64,000 nucleotides of DNA. Origin: Octopus vulgaris (lineage: Eukaryota). The number at the start of each line of letters is the position of its first letter. Position 1 is the first letter of the stretch. The stretch is taken from positions 53,878,001 to 53,942,000 of the forward strand of contig OX597825.1 of assembly GCA_951406725.2 (NCBI GenBank). The letters run 5' to 3'. The notes beneath the pieces are model-generated. The model saw only the letters and a list, made by a program, of their open reading frames with translations, had not been told where the DNA came from and made no database searches. The position numbers and the translations under genes were made by a program. This document shows, in pieces, positions 1-60,322 of this stretch.

Positions 1-3000
1 TTACAGATATATGTCGTTAAAGACGAAGAAAATTTTCAATGCGCCGCACATCAATTAGCGAAATGCTTTAAGGACATATTTACTAATATTGACTTCCTCA
101 CACGAGGAAGACAATATCGTTCTATGGAAGTGAGATTTTACACAAAGAAACTGGTTCTAAAATATTCAATGACACAGTCTAAACATGAGGCTCTTCTCCT
201 CCTTCCCACTTACCTTGGTCGATGGGTGGCGAAGATTAACATTTCAGATGTGCCACCTGAAGTAGATATTTGGTGGTTGGTCGCTTGCGTAGTGGTCGAA
301 GGACCGGATTCACTTCTAGATATTGAAAAAGTATCGCAAGAACAGGTAAAACCGAAATCTTTGGACAAGACTCTCGACCTAATTGAAATTCCCAGTTCCA
401 GGTCGTGGAGGAATACAAGAAGCCGAAACGCCTCATTGGTCTAACACATATTTGTAAGCGCTCTACTCACAACAAAATGGAGGTAGAGAGATTACCCTTC
501 TTTTACCACCAACATAAGAAAACCAAACGCTACAAAACTCACTGTAGCAATAACAATCAAAGCAGAATCGTATCACAATAACGACACTAAGCTGTGCCCA
601 ACCATTCCTACAGACTGGCGACACAGAAACGGGTTTTACTGTTGACACTGGCGATTCGGAAGCTTTATCGTGTGATGAGGAGCAATTGAAACCATTAAGA
701 AGGAAACATGTCGGGGAAAGGCGAAAAAATAGTTTATAAAGGCTGTCCTAAGTTGAAAGCGAAAAGACAGGGTGAGCATTCATTTCGATGGCTATGAGAT
801 ATTCTCATAAAGTTCTCTGTCAGAAGCGGACGGTAGGTTAGCGGTGCTATTCCAAAAATCCTTAGATCTCGAAATAAGGGCAATATTCTTGGACCCGAGC
901 GGCAAGTTGGTGGTCCAAGGCGAAGGTTGTGCCTTTAGACTAGTGGCCGTTTATGCCTCGATAGGCTTCCTATCTGGCTTCGTATATGTTGCAGCTGCCG
1001 GCAGCGGATGCGATGTCCTGGAAAAAGCCGATAAAGGCGGCTTAAATACGGGAGTCGATGAGTGATTTCATAAGTCGCAAATTGCCTGCTTTGGATGGTC
1101 TGCACGATGAATTGCATGAATTCATGCCAGATTCTTTTTGGCGACCTCTTGTCAAATGTCTACCACAACTAGCCGTAGAACTGGCGAAATCCTAGTGCTG
1201 TTAGCCGGGGTCTGATGACGCTACTGAAAAAGAACGCCGATACTGAGGAGTTGCAAGGCAAATTTAGGCCCATAATTCTGATAAACACAGAGTTTAAGAT
1301 TTTCGCCAATGTGTTTGCGAAAGGTGTGACACTTGTTCCCAGTAGTCTGGTCGGTAAAGACTTCAGACCCGTTTTCAAGGACCCATTCACGGCAATGTAC
1401 AGCAGTACCTGCTCGGTAGTCAAAGTGAAAGGCAACCTATCGGAAGCGCTTCGATTCGCAGACTCAGTCTGCCGGGGCTGCCCGCTGTCGCCTCTTCTGT
1501 TAGTGATTGCTCTCGAGCCGCTGCAGTGGAAGCTAAAACTGGTAAGGGCATCTTTCTCGAACTGGAACAAAAGAGGGCAGTGTCGGCATATTTAAACATC
1601 ACAGTTATACAGTCGGACGCTATCGATGTGAGGATTGTTGGCACCATTCTTCAGGAATAAAGGTCGGTTGCAGGTGCCAAAATCAAGGGCGACAAGTCAG
1701 TGGAATTGCAGCTGGATAACTGGAGAGGTAGACTAATGCCGTCGGGTGGCGTCGTGGGACTTTGGACTGACAGACCGGTTAAACTTCTTAGGTCAGGTTC
1801 GGTCCCCACTTCTAGGTAGATAAGAACTGGAACGAGTTGACTGGCAGGGTAACCAGCCTTACCCAGAAACGGGCTGAGAGAAAACTGTGTCTGAAGGTCG
1901 GGCACAGATGGCGATTGCCTCCACAGCCTTCTTTATCAGCTATCGCCTGACTCTCACACTCTACTCCCGTTAATGCTTGACCAGGTTGGAGCTTTTCTTA
2001 TTTAGATTCTTGTGGAAGGGAGGTTTCCAATGGTTAGGCGGTTAGCCTGCTGCCAACACCCTGTGTGTGGTGGCTTCTGATGTAAAAGCACGCACTTAGG
2101 TTGCACCACTTGTGTGGGCACCGTTTGCGAGACATGTCTTCCCGTAGTTCGTTTCCTTGGCGGAGCTGTTGTTCTAGATCAAGCAAAGACCGAGATTGGA
2201 CGCCTGGCACCTAAAAAGGCGTCAGGCTCTCACAGCCCTCTACCAGTGGAGCAATGGTATCAATGGAAGTTCTATTTTAGTAATATATAGACAATCAATG
2301 TCGGGGAGGTTGCGACAACGTTCCCGGAGAGCCTCTGGGCGTCGACGAAAGCAAACTGGTTAGCCTGTTTCGGAGGACTTTCTGGTCAAGGACGACCATG
2401 GGTAATTTCTTGATGTCTTTGGCATGAGTGTCACTGAGGGGCGCTTTCAGTTCAAGATAAACTCTATAGATACGGATGCCCTCGCAGAAGGGTTTGTCAG
2501 AGGTGGACGCAGAGCGATGAAACCGTTATGCACGCACTCGTTCAGTGTCCGGGCACTGTCGCGTCTAGGATGGATCCATCTATAGGCCGAGGCCATAGTG
2601 AAGATTGTCCCACGGAGTAATTTTTTAATCTGGCAGATTATGTAGATTTTCTTTGCCTAGTGACGCTGTCGAAAGAGTTTGTCTGGTGGATGAGGCTGAA
2701 CGTCATAAGGACAGACTTTCCTCTTCAGTAGAGCTCTCACCGACCTCTTGAAGTTTTGTTTAAAAAGAAGGTAATGATGGAAAGCTAGGTGATGTTTTCA
2801 AGTGAATCTATTGAAAGTTGCGAAAATGACAAGGGTGAAGGGTGCCGCTCACAGAAGAGATCTGTGAATCATAGAACAAGAATTGAAGGGTGCATCTTCC
2901 ATTGGTGTTCTGAGAGTTATTGGTCAGTGGGTTTCCTCGGTTATCCCTAGAAGTCCTCCAGTGTTAAGAGGAGCATATCACTATCATCATACCTTCCTTT

Positions 3001-3155
3001 TATTTTATTTTATTTTAACTATTGTTTACTATCTTATTGTATAGTGTATATATTTTCTATACATTTTATTCATTCATTTTATGTAAACCACGACACTGGA
3101 TATCTGTCTTTGTATTATCCCACTAATCCCCCGTCCTAGTGGTGAATAAAGAGAA
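1..3155 (+). mobile_element. Decayed Tx1/L1-clade non-LTR retrotransposon (ORF1 remnant, EN, RT, C-terminal CCHC, 3' tail); 5' end lies outside the window
   Basis: ORF1 motif FLTRGRQYRSMEVRF...LLPTYLGRWVAKI (about 90-300). RT motifs FRPIILINTEFKIFANVFAK and SVCRGCPLSPLLLVIALEPL (ORF 1215-1595). Zinc-finger relic C..DETVMHALVQCP near 2495-2550. Ends in AATAAAGAGAAA at about 3145-3156, followed by (TTA)n. Many stops and frameshifts. Confidence 0.85.
1215..1595 (+). pseudogene. Internally deleted reverse transcriptase fragment of the Tx1/L1 element
   Basis: RPIxLxNxxxKIxA and GCPLSPLL motifs typical of L1/Tx1 RT; part of the intervening region appears deleted. Confidence 0.85.
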
Positions 3156-5060
<1,905 letters not shown>

Positions 5061-52604: not shown

Positions 52605-52744
52605 TATTGTATTGCACGTTCGACGTACGATATAACGGGATAATAAATAAGTCCTCACAAATTGCTCTACTCAAGGTACACAATACTTGTAATTAAATTC
52701 GACAATACGCAACCCTTGGATTTACACAACTCACCGACTCCCAA
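52605..52744 (-). repeat. Gypsy LTR R/U5 segment, copy 1
   Basis: About 80% identical by manual alignment to 59009-59149. Confidence 0.85.
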
Positions 52745-52877
52745 TTTCTTTATTTGGCACCCATAACTTAACAACACAAGGGGACAAGGACAAACAGAAT
52801 ACCACAGTTGGGACAATAAACATAAAACGAATGGAAGATGAAAAAGAAATGTATAATGAAATCGATGATGAGGAAAT
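52745..52877 (-). mobile_element. 3' tail A of a Tx1-related element; resumes at 54751-54787
   Basis: TTTCTTTATTTGGC...ACAAGGACAAAC...ACCACAGT...ATGAAATCGATGATGA, homologous to tails at 54788, 56314 and 59150. Confidence 0.75.
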
Positions 52878-54750
52878 TATTTCTTTATTCTAGGGACAAA
52901 GCCCAAACTGAGGGGACATACACAGACATGCGGGGACAAAAAGACACATGAAAGGATGAATGCAAAATGAAATTAATCCCAATGAAAATGAGATGGCCAT
53001 CTCGGCCCCGCTCCGAGAGGAAACCATGATTTCCTTTTCGTTTAAACCTTACATTTTAGCGAACATGTTTTTTACCAATGTCCATTCGACCGAGATGGTT
53101 ACAAGATTTACTTTTTTTAAACAAAAAGTTTAACCAAAAGGTTTTTACGAGACTTACCACTTTATCTTCTCTTTTATATCAACGTAATCCACCACCGAGG
53201 TTCGAGGTTCAATATTCACCTCTGGCTCCAGTAAATTTATGTCCGAAGGAAAGGCTTCCTTCAAAGCGCTATACTTTGTATCATCCATTACGACAAACCT
53301 CTTACTCTTGTCATAACCTTATTCACTCTTACAATGTCTTTTAATTTTGAAATTCTTCTGTCTAACTTTGAGTTGTCCTATATTTCACCAGAAAAAACAT
53401 ATTTCTGTGTGTGTCTTGTATGTCTGTGTTTTGTGACTCTGACTCTGTGTTTTTCGGTTTCTGTAATTCTACGCTATCCTGTGATTGTCTCCCTATGCTT
53501 CTCCATGACGGTATGTCTGTGTGTTTGTGTGTCTCTGTGACTGTAAACCTGCATGTATCGTCTGTATAGCTGTGTTTTTAGATTTCTGTGATACTAAGTT
53601 ATCTTGTATCTGTTTGTCTATATGTCTGTGTGTTTGCATGTCGGTGTGTTTGTGTGTCTGTGTGTCTGAATGTTTATGTACTTGCAAGTCCTTGCATTTG
53701 CTCGGTAATAAATACATATCTGTAGCTTTTTTCACTGGTGATCCTACTGGCGGACTATTCCTGCTTTTCGTTGTAGGTTGGATTACTTCTTCCATGGATT
53801 TGTATATTTTCTGTTCCATTATTGTTGGTGACCTCCTCTCTCTTTTTCTTGACTTTACCTCCACAAAATCACCATGTTTTTCTTTTATCTACTTCTGTTG
53901 TTTCTCCACTATTATGTTCTCCTGAGTACTCTCCTCTACGATTCCCACTGCTGCCCTAAGGCATCTCTTTCTCAAGTGCCCTCTTTCACCACACTCGTAA
54001 GAGTTTGGGGGCCTTTCCTCCAACAATATCTCCAGCTTTCCCTCATTTAGTAGCTCTAAATTTTCAGGTATTTAATCATAATACTTCTGGCTCACTGCAC
54101 AAATTACCTCTATTTTGCAGCCACAAAACTTCGCTTGTTGGGTCTGGCTTATCATGCCAATCCTAATATCTTCGCTGTTTCCCTCCTTATCTCCGAAAAA
54201 AAATCGCCGTTATTATCCAATCTGGTTCTATCCACAGTGGGATTATTCCTACCCTAAATCTGACAATTCGTTTAACCAACCAGTTTGGCAACACTGTCCT
54301 TTTCTCACCCTGTATCATCCTCTTAGAGGGTTTTTTTCCGCCTCCTCTTCTGATACAAAGGTTACCACTATAGACGCATATTTCTTTCCTCCTGTAAAGA
54401 ACGCTATGCTGACTCCTATATGTCTTTCCAAAATTTCTTTTCTCTTCCTGTGGTGCGTTTTCAGTTCTGCTTTTATTTGAAAATGTTTTGAATATTACCG
54501 TCTTTTCCATTTTCACTTCTTCCTCCTCTGGTAGGGTCAGTTTTATATTTTAATCCTCCTTCTCTACCATATTAACATATTGCACTGCAACATCTCCTGT
54601 TTCAATACACTCGGGTCAACGGGTACTCGATTTCCACTTCCAGTACCTTCTGTATAACTTCTCATTCTTTACAATTATTCACTACCACCAAACAATTTCA
54701 CACAAAAAAAAGCCGCTACAAAGTAAACGCACAACCGCTCACACCGATAA
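52878..54750 (-). mobile_element. ORF1-only Tx1-related element B (about 1.87 kb) with a 13-bp TSD
   Basis: TSD ATGATGAGGAAAT (52865-52877) / ATGATGATGAAAT (54751-54763). ORF1 motif FFTGGKKYASIVVTF. Zinc knuckle (S)YECGERGHLRKRC at 53961-54002. No EN or RT motifs seen. Confidence 0.75.
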
Positions 54751-54787
54751 ATGATGATGAAATGGCTACTTTGAGACCCATTCTCCT

Positions 54788-56308
54788 TTTCTTTATTTGG
54801 AAGCCAGGCATTAACATAAAGGGGATACACAAGGACAGACAGAACACCACAGTGTGGTCAAAATAAAAACTAAAAAGAATGAAAATGAAAAAAATTTATA
54901 ATGAAATCGATGATGATGAGATGGCTGCATTGAGCCCCACTCACAAGCAGTACCATTCAACTGTTCCTTTATACAATTTTCGCCAGTTTTCGTTTTTCTT
55001 TCTGCATCTTTTTTCCCATTTTTTAAAACGTCTATTTTCTTATTTTTTTCCTTCTATATTCTTTTCTCTTTTGTTTTTTCGTTTTTAAAAAGGACTCCTC
55101 TATTATCATTCATTAAAGATATTAACTCGTACTTAACTACTTTTAGTAGTTCCTCAAATTCAATTTCTTCCCCCAAAGGGTTCACATCATCTTCAAACAG
55201 TTCTTTGAACCATTTATAACTTTGCTTGTGAATCACCACTCCCTTGATATGCTCCGGGTAAGGATTTTTATGGCGCCTTTAAATTTCGTTATTTTCAGCT
55301 CTATGGCGGTGTTTTTCCTAAACAGTAAATGTTTCCTCTTTGTTTTCCTTTATTTCCAGCCCCTCCCCTTCGGCGGGTGGTTCTTCGCGTTGTTGTTCAT
55401 CCACTTTACATTCGTGCTGGGGTCACCATGCTCTCATGTGCACTTTTCGTTTACATCGAAAACATGTTCGAGGTTTTTTGGTAGAAGAATCTTTCTCCAA
55501 TTCAGTGTAGGTCTTTTAGCACAACTTGAATCGCTATCTCTAGGCCGTAGCCCCTCAATTAACTTTTATCGCTATAGTTACTATAAGGATCTTTGCATCT
55601 TCCTCCGTTTCGTGCATGACAACTGCCACCAGCCATGCCTCTTCGATCTCGGGAATACTCTACCGATTTTCACTCTGGCAACACGTTTGCCATACTGCGT
55701 CGGCAGCAGTACCCACACTTGTGTCCTTACCGGCTCAGTGGAGTGGTTAATAGCGTCCTCCTCGTTGGAGAACGCAACCTCCACTGTGCCGTATTTCCTT
55801 CCACGTGTATAAAGGTGGTGAGTCCTTTCACGTCTCCAAAACATTCCTCTATTTCCTCTATTGGGGCAATCTCTATATTTTCGGTAGCGCTTGACAACGT
55901 CCTGTACACAACAGTTTTGCCTGCTGCATTCTTCGTCATGTCTTCTGGTGGAGTCAGCTTTAAGCTGGTCCCTTCCCTTTCTAACAATTTGTTTCCTTCT
56001 TTCCATTTTTTCTCTATTTTTATCACGCGAATTTCAAGGATGTTGGTTGTAATACCTTGTGTAGTTGGAGGTGCATAACTTGCTCCACGCTCCATTCTCC
56101 TCTTTTCACCACTTCACCCAGAACTGCAGGAGAAACAACGTCCGAAACAGGCCAAAATCAACGACAGAAATCCAACAATTTAACAATATAAGGAAATTTG
56201 TTTCACCCGCGAGGGGAAACCTACAACAAATATATAAATAACAAGGTGTAACAATTTAACTCACGTTTAAAGATACCAAAGTCAATAGCCAAAAAGAGTG
56301 GGGCGACT
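54788..56308 (-). mobile_element. ORF1-only Tx1-related element C (about 1.5 kb)
   Basis: ATG at 56095. VVYRTLS...IEECF, then YTRGRKYGTVEVAF...LLPTQYGKRVARVKIG after a frameshift. C-terminal VVIHKQSYKWFKELFEDDV. Shared tail. Confidence 0.78.
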
Positions 56309-56313
56309 TTCTC

Positions 56314-57613
56314 TGTCTTTGTTTTGGCACTGCGGCCATTTACACAGAGAGGACACCAGAAGGACAGACAGAAAACCACAGTGGCGACAAAAAACATAAA
56401 ACGAACGAAAAATGTTTAAAATGTATAATGAAATCGATGATGATGAAATGGCTGCATTGAGCAACAATCACAAACATTACCGTTTAACAGTTAATTTATA
56501 CAATTTTTTTAAAGTTTTCTGTTGCCATTTTGGAATTTTTTTTTCCTCTTTATTTCTATATTTTTACTGTTTTTTAGAAAGTTTATTTCTTCTATATTTT
56601 ATTTTTAAAGGACTTCTCTATTACCATTCATTAAGGGTATTAACTCTTCGTATTTAACTAATTCTGGTAGTTTCTCAAATTCAATCTGTTCGCCCCAATG
56701 TTTCACATCATCTTCAAATAATAGTTTCAACCTTTTGTACTTTTCCTTGTCAATCACCACTCCCTTGATGTGTTCCAGGTAACATTTTGCTGGCAATTTA
56801 ATCATTATGGCACCTTTGGACTTCGTTATTTTCCGTTCTATGGCGGTGATTTTCACATATATGACCATATACCACCTTTTATTACTCGCATTTACTTGCT
56901 TATGCTCCGGACCTGGGCCATCCAGGCTAGTCGCTTCCTTTGGTTCCCCCATCTGTACATAAAAATAATCGTCCGTGATTATATCTTCCACCCAAATGTT
57001 TTGATACCTCTGCTGGTATGTCTAACCAGTTCCTTGGTACCTCCTCTATGTTATCGTCTACTTTCTTCATTCGTTTTTGGCTCTCTGGCGGAGAATTGCC
57101 CGCTCTTTCCACTTTCGCCTATTTACGACTGTAAACGTCACCTCGTTGTTTTCCTTTATTTCCGGCTCCTCCTCTTCGGCGGGCTGTCCTTCGTGTTTTT
57201 GTTCTCCCACATTATTTTGGGGGCACCTTCCTCTCATGTGCCCTTTTTTTTACATAGAAAACATGATGGAGGTCTTCCCTCCACTTAACGTAATATCTTC
57301 TGGTAGAAGAATCTCCTCTACAATTCCGTGTAGGTACTTTTATCCAACTTGAATCACCATCGCTAGGCCGTAGCCCCAAGAATTAACTTTTTTCGCTATA
57401 GTTACTATAAGGATCCTTGCATCTTTCTCCATTCCATGCATGACTGCTACCACCAGCCATACCTCTTCGATGTCGGAGGGCTCTCTGCCGACTCTCACTC
57501 TAGCAACACGTTTGCCACACTACGTCGGTAGCGGCACATACTCTTGTGAAACGATCGGCTTAGTGGAGTGATTAATAGCATCCTCTTCATTGGAGAACCT
57601 ATCCTCCACTGCG
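56314..57613 (-). mobile_element. 5'-truncated ORF1-only element E, close relative of C
   Basis: 57300-57612 aligns with 55480-55790. ORF 56605-56991 carries the shared C-terminal domain. Shared tail. Confidence 0.78.
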
Positions 57614-59008
57614 CTAAGTCCGGTTTTCGTCTGTTTTCATTGATTGCCTGTCCCAAGTACTTTAAGTTTGTTTTTAAAAAATCGCATTTCTTTTCACTTA
57701 CCTTAAATTTATAGTCGCTTATTCTTTTAAAAACATTTTTAACATGTACAGAATTCAGGTCCTCGATTCACTTTTGATCAATATGTCATCCAAGTATGGG
57801 ACCGCAAAATGACAGTCTGCGTGCATAGTGTCCATGACTTGCTGAAATATTGCTAGTGCGAACTTAACCTCAAATGGCTGTCTTTGAAGCGGTACAGACC
57901 TTTATGAGTATTAGTTGTTAATATTTTAGCAGATTGTTTAGTAATTGGAGGTAGGCCTCTGACAAATATAGCTTGTAATTTTTTAAACAATCATTAAGAC
58001 GAGTTGCGAAGTTCGCACGTACTCTTATTTTGTTGTTTTTCTTTTTTATATATCCAGTAGAAGCCACCCATTGTGAGTAGTCTACTTTTTTGATTACCTC
58101 CATGTCTTCCAATCTTTTCAGTTCCTTCTCAGCTTGATTTAACTCCGTAAAAGGCACATTCCTTTTCGGTTTGAACACCGGTACTGCATTTTCTTTCAAA
58201 TTAAACTTTACTTTGATTCTTTTACACGTTCCGAGTTCCTTCAAGGATACATCAGTGTACATCTTCTTTAATTTTAATTTCAATTTTTCCGATGTATTAT
58301 CTGACATGGACATATGGACACATTCACCTTATTACATAATGTATTCAATGGTAGGTCGAATTCTTCCATTAAATCTGTACCGAACAGATTCATTGTATTT
58401 TTAGATACCATTATTTTTAGATACCATTATTTCTCAAGCCCTTTATCAAATATTAGGCACTTGAACATATCTGACATTAATTCTCCAAGCTTAAACCTTT
58501 CACAAGCCGTATTAATAATACCGCTATTAAGCATTCTCACCGAATGTTAAACAGCGAATATTTTCGCTAAAAATACTAGTCAAAATTTTTATCGTTTCAT
58601 CAAAACACAATTCCGCGGGCTTTCTCGGTAAAATAAAGTTAGAAAAACTCTCGTGTTCCAGAGCCTTACCTTCCGTTCACACGACCATCCCTTACGTTCC
58701 TATCTGAATATGTCCTCGTATTGTCTGTAATACCTGGTAAAGGTAGTTCATTCATCGGGAAAGTACTGGAATACTTCGATAGAGTTTGCAACATCATTGC
58801 AAAGTGATTCTGTCGTATTTCTCGACTGCAGTAACAACTCTGTTACCTTCACTAGTTGCTGCTACTCTTGTTGTTTTACGACTGCTTTCAGTAGATCTCC
58901 CATTTCGGTACTACTTTTAGTTTCAATCTTGTTCGAATCCTCGGTACTGTTCGAAACCTCGCGCTACTGTTGTATCAGTGGAGATATTAACCGAATGCTC
59001 GTCGCCAC
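57614..59008 (-). mobile_element. Mag-like Ty3/Gypsy internal region: PBS, gag relic, RT relic
   Basis: PBS TGGCGACGAG (59007-58998) is complementary to the tRNA-Ser(GCU) 3' end. Gag VANSIEVFQYFPDE...YRQYEDIF. Pol PVFKPKRNVPF...ELKRLEDMEVIKKVDYSQW and AVPYLDDILI. Confidence 0.9.
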
Positions 59009-60322
59009 TGTTGTATCGTACGTTCGACGTACGATATAACGGAATTACAAATTACTTCCTCGTAAATCGTTTTACTCAAGATACACAATACTTGTAATTA
59101 CACTCGAACATACGCCGCCCTCGGCTTTATACAGCGCACCGACTCTCAATTTCTTTATTGGCCACTGTGGGCCCAATGCACAGAGGACAGCACAAGGACA
59201 GACAATTCAGGGGTGGGGCATAAAACATGAACGAATTAAGGAAATGAATTATATAATCAATGAGGGTAGAATGGCTACTCCGATCCCCACTCTCGAGCAG
59301 TGCCATTTAACTATTTTTTCCTTCAATGTTCATCGATTTTATATCAAATTTAAACTTACATTATCGGATCATTTATTGTTTCAAGTTCTCGTATTCTATC
59401 ACAGGAGATAGAGAGTTGTATCTCACCTCTGGTACCAGTGGGTCTATGTCATTACCGAAAGTTTCTTTTAGGTTTTTCTTTTTACCTGTCCATTTCTACA
59501 CTTTATGTCTGTTGGGTAGTACCCAACAGGCATTTTAACTCTTATTGCCGATTTAATTTTTAAAAGCTTTCTCTCGATGGCCGTGCTCATCACAATGGTC
59601 ATCAAATATGCCTTATTTTTGTGATTGGCCTGAGAGGTTTGTGTGTCTAATTGTGTATATTTATAGGTTTCTGTTTGAGTTTGTCTATCTGGAGAATCTG
59701 GGCAGTTTGGAATGTTTGGCGGTTTCCTTGGGTGATTTAACAAGGAAAACGACACTGTTCTTTAGAAGCTTACCGACTATCTTTTTCCTTTTAGTGGCCA
59801 CTGTGGGCCCAGTTTAACTGCTTTGTCCTGCCTACCTACAGTATTGCTGCAAGCAACTACATCTCTTTAATCTCAGGGGTAACCCTGTCAATCCTCTCTC
59901 TCGCCTCTCATTTCTCGAGAAAAGTTGGCAGGAGTGCCCATTCATTCCTTTTCAATGTTAAAGTGGAGTACTTTACTGCCCCTTCCACAGTAGGAGAGTG
60001 CACGTCCACGGTGCCAAACTTTCTTCCTCTGCAGAAAAATTCAATGCCACTCCTTATATCTTCCAACCACTCTTCTATATCTTCCTCGCCAGCTATTTCC
60101 ATTTTCTTGCTTGTCAGTTATAGATTGTATAAACCACCATTTTCCCTCTTTGCCTCTTGTTTATATCTTGCAGCTGTGTCAATTTCAGTCTAGACCCCTC
60201 TCGTTGGATTAATTCATTACTGCTTTTTAATATTTCAAAATATGCAGGTACTTCTTTCAAAATCTACAGGTACTTCTCACGACCTGCTACCGGTGCGTAG
60301 ATTTCGACACGTGTTTGCAACA
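59009..60322 (-). mobile_element. Gypsy 5' LTR split by element D: R/U5 at 59009-59149, putative U3 at about 60200-60322
   Basis: Termini TGTTGTA (59009) and TGCAACA (60322) form an inverted pair. Adjacent PBS. A 22-bp tandem repeat (60233-60276) and TATA-like TATTAAAA (minus strand, 60225-60232) lie in the putative U3. Confidence 0.65.
59150..60200 (-). mobile_element. ORF1-only Tx1-related element D (about 1.05 kb, internally deleted)
   Basis: IEFFCRGRKFGTVDV...WALLPTFL (59908-60102), AIERKLLKIKSAIRVKMP (59468-59755) and the shared tail. Confidence 0.75.

What the first reader, a model, noticed from the sequence alone, without database searches (positions are those of the whole stretch)
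52735..59160. Retroelement 3' ends land exactly 5 nt from CGACT, including the same nucleotide of two Gypsy LTRs: a candidate site-specific element targeting other transposons
Seen: CGACT-cccaa-TTTCTTTATT (52735), CGACT-ttctc-TGTCTTTGTT (56304) and CGACT-ctcaa-TTTCTTTATT (59140). A fourth junction reads CCATT-ctcct-TTTCTTTATT (54778), where sister tails have CCACT. Two sites are the homologous position of two LTR copies that are about 80% identical, yet the inserted tails A and D look like different subfamilies (A carries ACCACAGT and TGTATAATGAAATCGATGATGA; D does not). Known: many Tx1-clade LINEs are sequence-specific, usually for snRNA, tRNA, microsatellites or another transposon. Inference: independent insertions just upstream of a minus-strand AGTCG motif. 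Element B is an exception.
Basis: partly seen in the sequence, partly recalled or inferred. Interest (0 to 1): 0.75.

Follow-up and report, generated by a model that had tools for sequence, protein, structure and literature searches.

The report
Half-LINEs landing at LTR start sites
Small jumping genes that encode only an RNA-binding protein have landed again and again at one spot in the end repeats of another jumping gene, about 30 bases behind a TATA box, which is likely where transcription starts, so they probably seek out and borrow promoters rather than read the short DNA word first proposed.

Summary
The junctions are real, but the 'CGACT at 5 nt' rule is not general. It holds for 1 of 89 tails sampled genome-wide. 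The window's CGACT sites are all one sequence: the spot about 33 nt behind the TATA box of one LTR family.

Independent insertion is supported. 14 of 39 LTR copies are filled, by at least three tail subfamilies, and insert and LTR similarity are unrelated.

The inserts are 1.7-1.9 kb ORF1-only elements (two predicted RRMs plus a zinc knuckle). They share their 3' end with intact 5.3 kb L1/Tx1-type LINEs.

Across unrelated targets with duplications, a TATA-like word sits 27-34 nt upstream in 24 of 41 (4.8 expected). A small held-out set gave 2 of 6 (0.2 expected).

Best reading: insertion at Pol II start sites, in sense orientation, with likely promoter borrowing. No start site was mapped.

The scan noted start-site targeting and ORF1-only partners earlier on other DNA of this genome. 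My paper searches found it in print only for Pol III-targeting elements.

The parts
52606..52744 (-). LTR copy 1, R-U5 part (3' LTR of the host LTR element); insertion site at its right edge, GGGAGTCGG on the minus strand
   Evidence: empty relatives have TATAAA 33 nt upstream of GAGTCG
52745..52877 (-). Element A, last 133 nt of the tail, ending AATAAAGAAA
52880..54749 (-). Element B, ~1.87 kb decayed ORF1-only element of a different subfamily, inserted into tail A; 13-nt duplication at 52865-52877 and 54751-54763
54750..54787 (-). Element A, first 38 nt (5'-truncated end); its start GAG matches the LTR site, likely a microhomology join
   Evidence: other ~166-nt truncated copies L128, L131
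54788..56313 (-). Element C, near full-length decayed ORF1-only element; its head GAGAAAGTCGCC holds the 56304 CGACT
   Evidence: 80% identical to L179 over 805 nt
56314..57614 (-). Element E, 5'-incomplete ORF1-only element stacked at the head of C
57618..59008 (-). Decayed internal remnant of the host LTR element, with primer-binding-site-like TGGCGACGAG at 58998-59007
   Evidence: no Pfam hit over cut-off or PDB hit for the 57921-58328 frame
59009..59149 (-). LTR copy 2, R-U5 part (5' LTR); insertion site GAGAGTCGG at its right edge
59150..59766 (-). Element D1, 5'-truncated, second tail subfamily; probable 15-nt duplication at 59133-59147 and 59767-59781
59784..60322 (-). Element D2, internally deleted copy (ORF1 5' half joined to the last ~28 nt of the tail) stacked at the 5' duplication of D1

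Best explanation
These are ORF1-only retroelements that inserted independently, facing the same way as the LTR, about 30 bases behind the LTR's TATA box, at its likely transcription start, probably using the enzymes of full-length L1/Tx1-type LINEs in the same genome. Shown: the ORF1-only anatomy, the 3' end shared with intact LINEs, 11-25 nt target duplications, the fixed TATA distance across unrelated targets, different inserts in the two LTRs of one host element, and stacking at the 5' copy of the site. Inferred: (1) the site is the Pol II start; (2) the LINE machinery is positioned by the promoter complex or by the opened or bent start-site DNA, with a loose subfamily-specific preference such as AGT or GAG at the first nick; (3) because the duplication leaves TATA, start site and 11-25 nt of target in front of the element, the element is transcribed from the host promoter and the site is rebuilt for the next insertion. 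ORF1p as the tether to TBP is only an analogy to TRE5-A and is untested.
For: Empty LTRs have TATAAA 33 nt upstream of GAGTCG in the commonest form (range about 19-37). In 8 filled copies with both junctions the insert splits the LTR between TATA box and R part; by my count from the printout it starts about 25-33 nt after TATA in 6, and about 37 and 45 nt in 2. Of 12 LTRs picked by their TATA side, 5 carry an element head there. Among 42 independent targets with duplications, TATAWA starts at -34..-27 in 9 (0.61 expected) and TATAWAWR with one mismatch in 16 (2.5 expected). TATAWA with one mismatch: 12 of 19 for autonomous and 12 of 22 for short elements (1.9 and 2.9 expected). Of 14 eight-base windows scanned, -34 has 20 hits and the next best 8. 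Held-out set, rule fixed in note 103: exact TATAWA 2 of 6 (0.2 expected, p 0.011), or 3 of 7 (p 0.0002) with one 30-nt duplication that my script had dropped. Young autonomous copies sit in unrelated flanks with no shared word. One sits at the first bases of a U1 gene. One short element at an unrelated TATA site begins with 23 nt of this LTR's R part, starting at GAGTCGG. No ORF2 match in 12 full-length short elements or in B, C, E, D. ORF1 is 29-38% identical to autonomous ORF1s.
Against: No start site was mapped; only assembled contigs were available. 17 of 41 targets have no TATAWA-like word in the window. The -34..-27 window was chosen after seeing the data. The held-out set is tiny and not significant with the one-mismatch motif (2 of 6, p 0.25; 3 of 7, p 0.056). 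Head capture was seen clearly in only 1 of 35 full-length copies (2 of 35 at 13 nt or more, against 21 of 140 in the null). One subfamily keeps to the word GAGCTG at both about 29 and about 37 nt from TATA (L302, L293), which points to sequence reading. Subfamilies favour particular repeats. Only 33 of 89 short and 40 of 62 autonomous copies had a scorable duplication. The window's own LTRs lack their TATA part.
Confidence: 0.65

Rival explanations
1. Each subfamily's endonuclease reads a short DNA word (AGT, GAG, GAGCTG) or the shape of naked DNA. The TATA distance is a by-product because such words are common at start sites.
For: AGT starts 2-3 nt from the tail in 39 of 89 short-element tails. 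Subfamily-specific targets exist. The L293-type subfamily keeps GAGCTG at two TATA distances. PMC4494074 states that target choice is mainly set by the endonuclease (passage).
Against: A 3-nt word cannot give 14 of 39 occupancy of one LTR site in a 2.8 Gb genome. Young autonomous copies share no word, yet 12 of 19 have TATA-like words at the fixed distance. No position of the duplication is conserved across 42 targets.
Confidence: 0.18
2. One or a few ancestral insertions were copied along with the LTR element, or insertion is loose and only promoter-landed copies survive to be seen.
For: Four L293-type inserts are 81-90% alike, as alike as their LTRs. L049 and L054 are near-identical duplicates. 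Elements that need a host promoter multiply only from promoter sites.
Against: Both host elements with two filled LTRs carry different subfamilies in the two LTRs (window A and D, 66%; L294 and L298, 66%). Insert and LTR identities are unrelated (Spearman -0.06, Mantel p 0.67, 12 copies, low power). 5'-truncated copies, which cannot have profited from a promoter, also sit behind TATA boxes (L232, L236, L080, L130, L173).
Confidence: 0.07
3. Targeting is RNA-guided: the element's RNA begins with target sequence captured in the duplication, and that head pairs with matching targets, so lineages stay on the promoter they came from.
For: Heads of C-type elements begin with the LTR site and these elements recur in the same LTR family. 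Families stay on one repeat (7 of the L217-type copies share one target).
Against: L179 carries this LTR's head but landed at an unrelated promoter. 5'-truncated and full-length copies use the same sites. Three unrelated subfamilies use the same LTR site.
Confidence: 0.1

Closest known systems
Transposon-targeting Tx1 families: Xenopus Tx1 in Tx1D; crocodilian Tx1-Mar with SINEU in Mariner-N4_AMi; Tx1-8_Crp and Tx1-4_AMi in LTR retrotransposons (PMC4494074; passages and part 3 of 5 read)
   Same: L1/Tx1-type machinery, preference for other transposons including LTR elements, tandem stacking, a non-autonomous partner sharing the target, and a suggestion of transcription from the flank.
   Different: In the parts read, targets are given as particular repeats, not as a position relative to a TATA box. 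Here many unrelated targets share only the TATA distance, and the partner is ORF1-only rather than a SINE. The supplementary figures S3-S6, which map positions, were not seen and may bear on this.
TRE5-A.1 and TRE5-A.2 of Dictyostelium (PMC3159450, PMC5006619, PMC5911963; passages)
   Same: Non-LTR element positioned by a TBP-containing transcription complex, with an ORF1-retaining, ORF2-deleted partner mobilised in trans. ORF1p binds TFIIIB subunits in vitro.
   Different: TRE5-A targets Pol III genes about 50 bp upstream, in opposite orientation, and has its own promoter. Here the insertion is at the inferred start of TATA-type promoters, in sense orientation. No protein contact is shown here.
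Ty3 and Tj1 LTR retrotransposons (PMC5911963; passages)
   Same: Integration within a few bases of a transcription start, by position rather than by sequence.
   Different: They are integrase-based and target Pol III genes. This element is a target-primed LINE derivative at likely Pol II starts.
HAL1 (half-L1) (PMC5753468; passage)
   Same: Non-autonomous LINE derivative that encodes only ORF1p.
   Different: HAL1 derives from mammalian L1. No target specificity is mentioned in the passage read. The HAL1 paper itself was not held.

Membership tests
ORF1-only non-autonomous LINE (HAL1-like) | Encodes ORF1p only, with no ORF2 remnant, in copies bounded by target duplications | tested here: met
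   No tblastn match of five ORF2s to 12 full-length short elements or to B, C, E, D. 2 of 89 tails have RT-region matches within 1.5 kb, none to the ORF2 C-terminus. Lengths mostly 1.7-1.9 kb.
ORF1-only non-autonomous LINE (HAL1-like) | ORF1p homologous to that of an autonomous LINE, with a shared 3' end | tested here: met
   29-38% identity, E to 1e-41. AATAAAGAAA end in both. The 8 short-element ORF1s form one branch, support 100/99.
HAL1 proper | Derived from mammalian L1 | tested here: not met
   The only database homologs of ORF1 are three octopus proteins. The fold is tandem RRM plus CCHC.
L1/Tx1-type LINE (autonomous partner) | ORF2 with APE endonuclease, RT and C-terminal zinc domain, behind an ORF1 | tested here: met
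   Pfam Exo_endo_phos, RVT_1 and zf-RVT over cut-off in 2 of 2 tested. Best solved relative is human L1 ORF2p, E 4e-66.
Tx1 clade | RT phylogeny groups with Tx1, Keno, Kibi rather than with L1 proper | not testable with these tools
   No named Tx1 reference came back. PMC13282606 lists 13 recently active L1-Tx1 families in O. vulgaris (table passage), which is only consistent.
Sequence-specific LINE with an N5-AGTCG target | Fixed motif at a fixed distance from the 3' end genome-wide | tested here: not met
   1 of 89; 41 matches against 38 control, N5 in 6 of 41.
Start-site-targeted element (works like Ty3 or TRE5-A) | Insertion at a fixed distance from a core promoter element across unrelated targets | tested here: met
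   held-out (small, significant only for the exact motif).
Start-site-targeted element (works like Ty3 or TRE5-A) | The site is a mapped transcription start | not testable with these tools
   Only contigs were offered.
Start-site-targeted element (works like Ty3 or TRE5-A) | An element protein contacts the transcription factor complex | not tested
Gypsy (Ty3) host element | TG...CA LTRs, primer-binding site, pol order PR-RT-RH-IN | tested here: inconclusive
LTR ends and a PBS-like site are present. DUF7083 was found in one relative's frame.

The most novel reading that the evidence does not exclude
A whole LINE lineage, together with an old ORF1-only sister lineage, is guided by the Pol II pre-initiation complex to nick DNA at the transcription start. 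It lives without a promoter of its own by taking over TATA promoters of LTR elements, other transposons and snRNA genes, rebuilds the site at every insertion, and disables the LTR elements it parasitises. ORF1p would be the targeting factor, which would explain why ORF1-only elements persist.
Probability: 0.4. Interest if true: 0.82.

Novelty: new variant of a known kind. Interest (0 to 1): 0.62.

Why it matters
Target-specific LINEs are usually explained by an endonuclease that reads a sequence. A lineage that finds many unrelated targets by their distance from a TATA box would be a Pol II counterpart of Ty3 and TRE5-A targeting. It would explain how Tx1-type families switch targets so easily, and it could be tested on the published positions of Tx1-Mar and LTR-targeting families. 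Old insertions would mark germ-line start sites in a genome without CAGE data. About a third of the sampled copies of one LTR family are split between TATA box and transcribed part, so these elements may have curbed an LTR family. Intact 1130-1148 aa ORF2 copies exist, so the mechanism can be assayed.

Tried and rejected
1. N5-AGTCG motif: rejected. The 10 N1 matches examined belong to an unrelated repeat.
2. Single ancestral insertion: rejected as the general explanation.
3. Reading the 54778 site as a CCACT-like target inside tails: replaced by a 5'-truncation join at the rebuilt LTR site. This is inference.
4. Systematic head capture: not shown, one clear case in 35.
5. RNA evidence: no RNA holder listed, contigs only; laying four runs gave no start information.
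6. ORF1p-TBP complex prediction: tool not available, no verdict.
7. Rfam found no hammerhead at B-type targets; its hits were sub-threshold miRNA models on microsatellites.
8. A 10-nt match between C's 3' flank and C's own start-codon region (L020) is within the null range and was not taken as a duplication.
9. In one search the count '0 of 89 with ORF1' was a failed search; repeated it is 36 of 89.
10. The idea that B landed 34 nt behind C's AATAAAG because this mimics a TATA box was not tested further.
Rows dropped before the TATA counts: one search dropped 6 named loci (tandem self-matches, microsatellites) and 5 tandem copies, and merged 60 into 42 clusters. One search dropped L136. One search dropped 12 loci without a tail, 5 by filters and 8 with targets seen before.
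Full report
OBSERVATION. The four junctions are in the sequence as written. The two LTR pieces are 81.9% identical over 155 nt and carry tails A and D at the same base. The window lies in a 2.8 Gb animal genome. The only protein homologs of the insert's ORF1 are octopus proteins, so I take the host to be an octopus.

ANATOMY (minus strand). LTR copy 2 (59009-59149) is followed by a primer-binding-site-like TGGCGACGAG and an internal remnant. LTR copy 1 (52606-52744) is followed by unrelated flank. They are most likely the 5' and 3' LTR of one old element: three other LTR pairs are 84-88% identical, this pair 81%. Each LTR is cut at the same base by a pile of inserts. The TATA-bearing part of both LTRs is missing from the window.

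WHAT THE INSERTS ARE. Full-length relatives are mostly 1.7-1.9 kb with duplications of 11-21 nt. They encode one protein with a CCHC knuckle and two predicted RRM domains (pLDDT 83.8; best fold matches are tandem RRMs, E 7e-6). No ORF2 remnant was found in 12 full-length copies or in B, C, E, D. A zf-RVT search found many LINEs with open ORF2 frames of 1130-1148 aa. These have APE, RT and zinc domains, human L1 ORF2p as best solved relative, ORF1s 29-38% identical to the short elements' ORF1, and the same AATAAAGAAA end. In an ORF1 tree of 28 rows, the 8 short-element rows form one branch (100/99) apart from the 15 rows labelled as ORF2-bearing. So this is an old ORF1-only lineage, not a set of recent deletions. 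Placement in Tx1 rather than L1 proper was not testable.

THE PROPOSED MOTIF FAILS. A tail pattern chosen without regard to the flank has 108 genome matches against 3 for the control; I examined 89 of them, dropping none. AGTCG at 5 nt occurs in 1 and AGTNG in 3. AGT lies within the first 10 nt in 48 (control 12.8), mostly starting at 2 or 3 nt. CGACT-N1..9-tail has 41 matches against 38 for the reversed control: N1 16, N2 4, N3 9, N5 6, N6-9 6. The six N5 matches include the two window sites and a near-identical pair. The flanks fall into many unrelated repeat families, including other LTRs and heads of the elements themselves.

INDEPENDENT INSERTION HOLDS. Of 39 distinct copies of this LTR, 14 are filled (the window's two included). 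At least three tail subfamilies are involved. Among 12 filled copies, tail identity (63-90%) does not follow LTR identity (73-88%): Spearman -0.06, Mantel p 0.67, low power. In both host elements with two filled LTRs the two inserts are 66% alike. Four inserts of one subfamily are alike enough that shared descent cannot be excluded for them.

WHAT THE TARGETS SHARE. Empty LTRs show TATAAA 33 nt before GAGTCG in the commonest form. In 8 filled copies with both junctions the insert separates the TATA part from the R part. Of 12 copies picked by their TATA side, 5 have an element head there (one identified only by resemblance). I then called duplications in 89 short and 62 autonomous copies: 33 and 40 scored 11 or more. 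The null rate was 3 of 178 for short copies and 28 of 124 for autonomous ones, the latter inflated by tandem arrays. After the drops listed under Tried and rejected, 42 independent targets remained. TATAWA starts 27-34 nt before the duplication in 9 (0.61 expected from the same flanks), TATAWAWR with one mismatch in 16 (2.5 expected). With TATAWA and one mismatch: 24 of 41 (4.8 expected), 12 of 19 autonomous and 12 of 22 short. The window was chosen after looking. I therefore fixed the rule (note) and tested 58 further loci, which yielded only 6 new independent targets: exact TATAWA in 2 (0.2 expected, p 0.011), one-mismatch in 2 (p 0.25). With one 30-nt duplication that my script had removed by a filter not in the rule: 3 of 7 (p 0.0002 and 0.056). 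One autonomous copy abuts the first bases of a U1 gene. The TATA consensus, the initiator-like reading of (T)CAGT and the ~30-nt TATA-to-start distance are recalled textbook knowledge and come from no call.

MECHANISM. Inferred: the first nick falls at about the start site and the second 11-25 nt further on. The duplication then leaves TATA box, start and a few target bases in front of a sense-oriented element, which would let the element use the host promoter and would rebuild the site at its 5' side. This accounts for the piles in the window, and for the 56304 CGACT, which is the head of C and has the form of heads seen inside this LTR elsewhere. One copy at an unrelated TATA site begins with 23 nt of this LTR's R part (L179), as expected of a daughter transcribed from an LTR promoter; it is the only clear case among 35 heads. 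Against a pure distance rule: 17 of 41 targets lack the word, one subfamily keeps GAGCTG at two distances, and subfamilies favour particular repeats. B's relatives mostly sit elsewhere: by my reading 21 of 29 are at one of two repeats that look like hammerhead ribozymes by eye (recalled core motif; Rfam gave no such hit). B is therefore an off-target copy of another subfamily. No transcription start could be mapped.

KNOWN CONTEXT. Kojima 2015 (PMC4494074; passages and part 3 of 5) reports Tx1 families that prefer transposons, two of them LTR retrotransposons, so 'a LINE that targets LTRs' is known. TRE5-A.2 is an ORF1-retaining partner of a LINE positioned by TFIIIB, and Ty3 and Tj1 insert at Pol III starts (PMC3159450, PMC5006619, PMC5911963; passages). 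HAL1 is the mammalian ORF1-only case (PMC5753468; passage). I also saw passages of PMC13282606, PMC3747384 and PMC12988792; none describes such targeting in the passages shown. Searches for a LINE or Tx1 inserting at TATA-type start sites returned 3, 2, 0 and 1 papers, none on this subject by title or abstract start; some searches were broader and I saw listings only, apart from the papers named. Subscription papers and Repbase reports are not covered, and no supplements were read.

EARLIER SCAN NOTES. I wrote down the start-site idea, before the first look-up. Several earlier notes describe the same habit, and ORF1-only partners, on other DNA of this genome. They are unchecked AI notes and are not counted as support. 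This window adds LTR promoters as a heavily used target class, the test of the CGACT rule, and counts for the ORF1-only lineage.

VERDICT. A real feature and a new variant of a known kind. Position relative to a TATA box is shown statistically; the start site, the promoter use and the tether are inferred. Interest 0.62.

Noticed in passing
window 40-3156, + strand: Decayed autonomous L1/Tx1-type copy: ORF1 match at 40-294, ORF2 matches at 784-2833, an AATAAAGAGA end followed by an (ATT)n tract.
   Followed up: partly
   Followed up: yes
L312-L340: B-type subfamily: 21 of 29 other copies sit at one of two repeats that look like hammerhead ribozymes by eye; no Rfam hammerhead hit.
   Followed up: partly
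G000:C2:73.04-73.07 Mb; L216-L222, L247, L252: Near-identical intact LINEs in a tandem array at about 5.4 kb spacing, all at one 17-nt site of one repeat, 28 nt behind TAAATAAAA.
   Followed up: partly
L405:5728-5891: An autonomous copy ends directly at the 5' end of a U1 snRNA gene.
   Followed up: partly
L402, L421, L422 (ATT)n; L271, L277, L286, L412 (CT)n: Sister LINE families with similar 3' ends sit in ATT or CT microsatellites, the classic Tx1 target type, beside the promoter-associated families.
   Followed up: no
L128, L131, L024 and window element A: Several copies are 5'-truncated at nearly the same point, about 165-170 nt from the 3' end, at a GAGTGGGG-like word that resembles the target; possibly a microhomology hotspot.
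   Followed up: no
window 54763 and 54797: B's duplication starts 34 nt behind C's AATAAAG end, one mismatch from TATAAAG; a tail end might act as a decoy TATA box. One case only.
   Followed up: no
L348, L351, L353, L360, L361 and others: An unrelated repeat carries CCAATAAAGAAAGAGTCGG internally and accounts for the N1 class.
   Followed up: no
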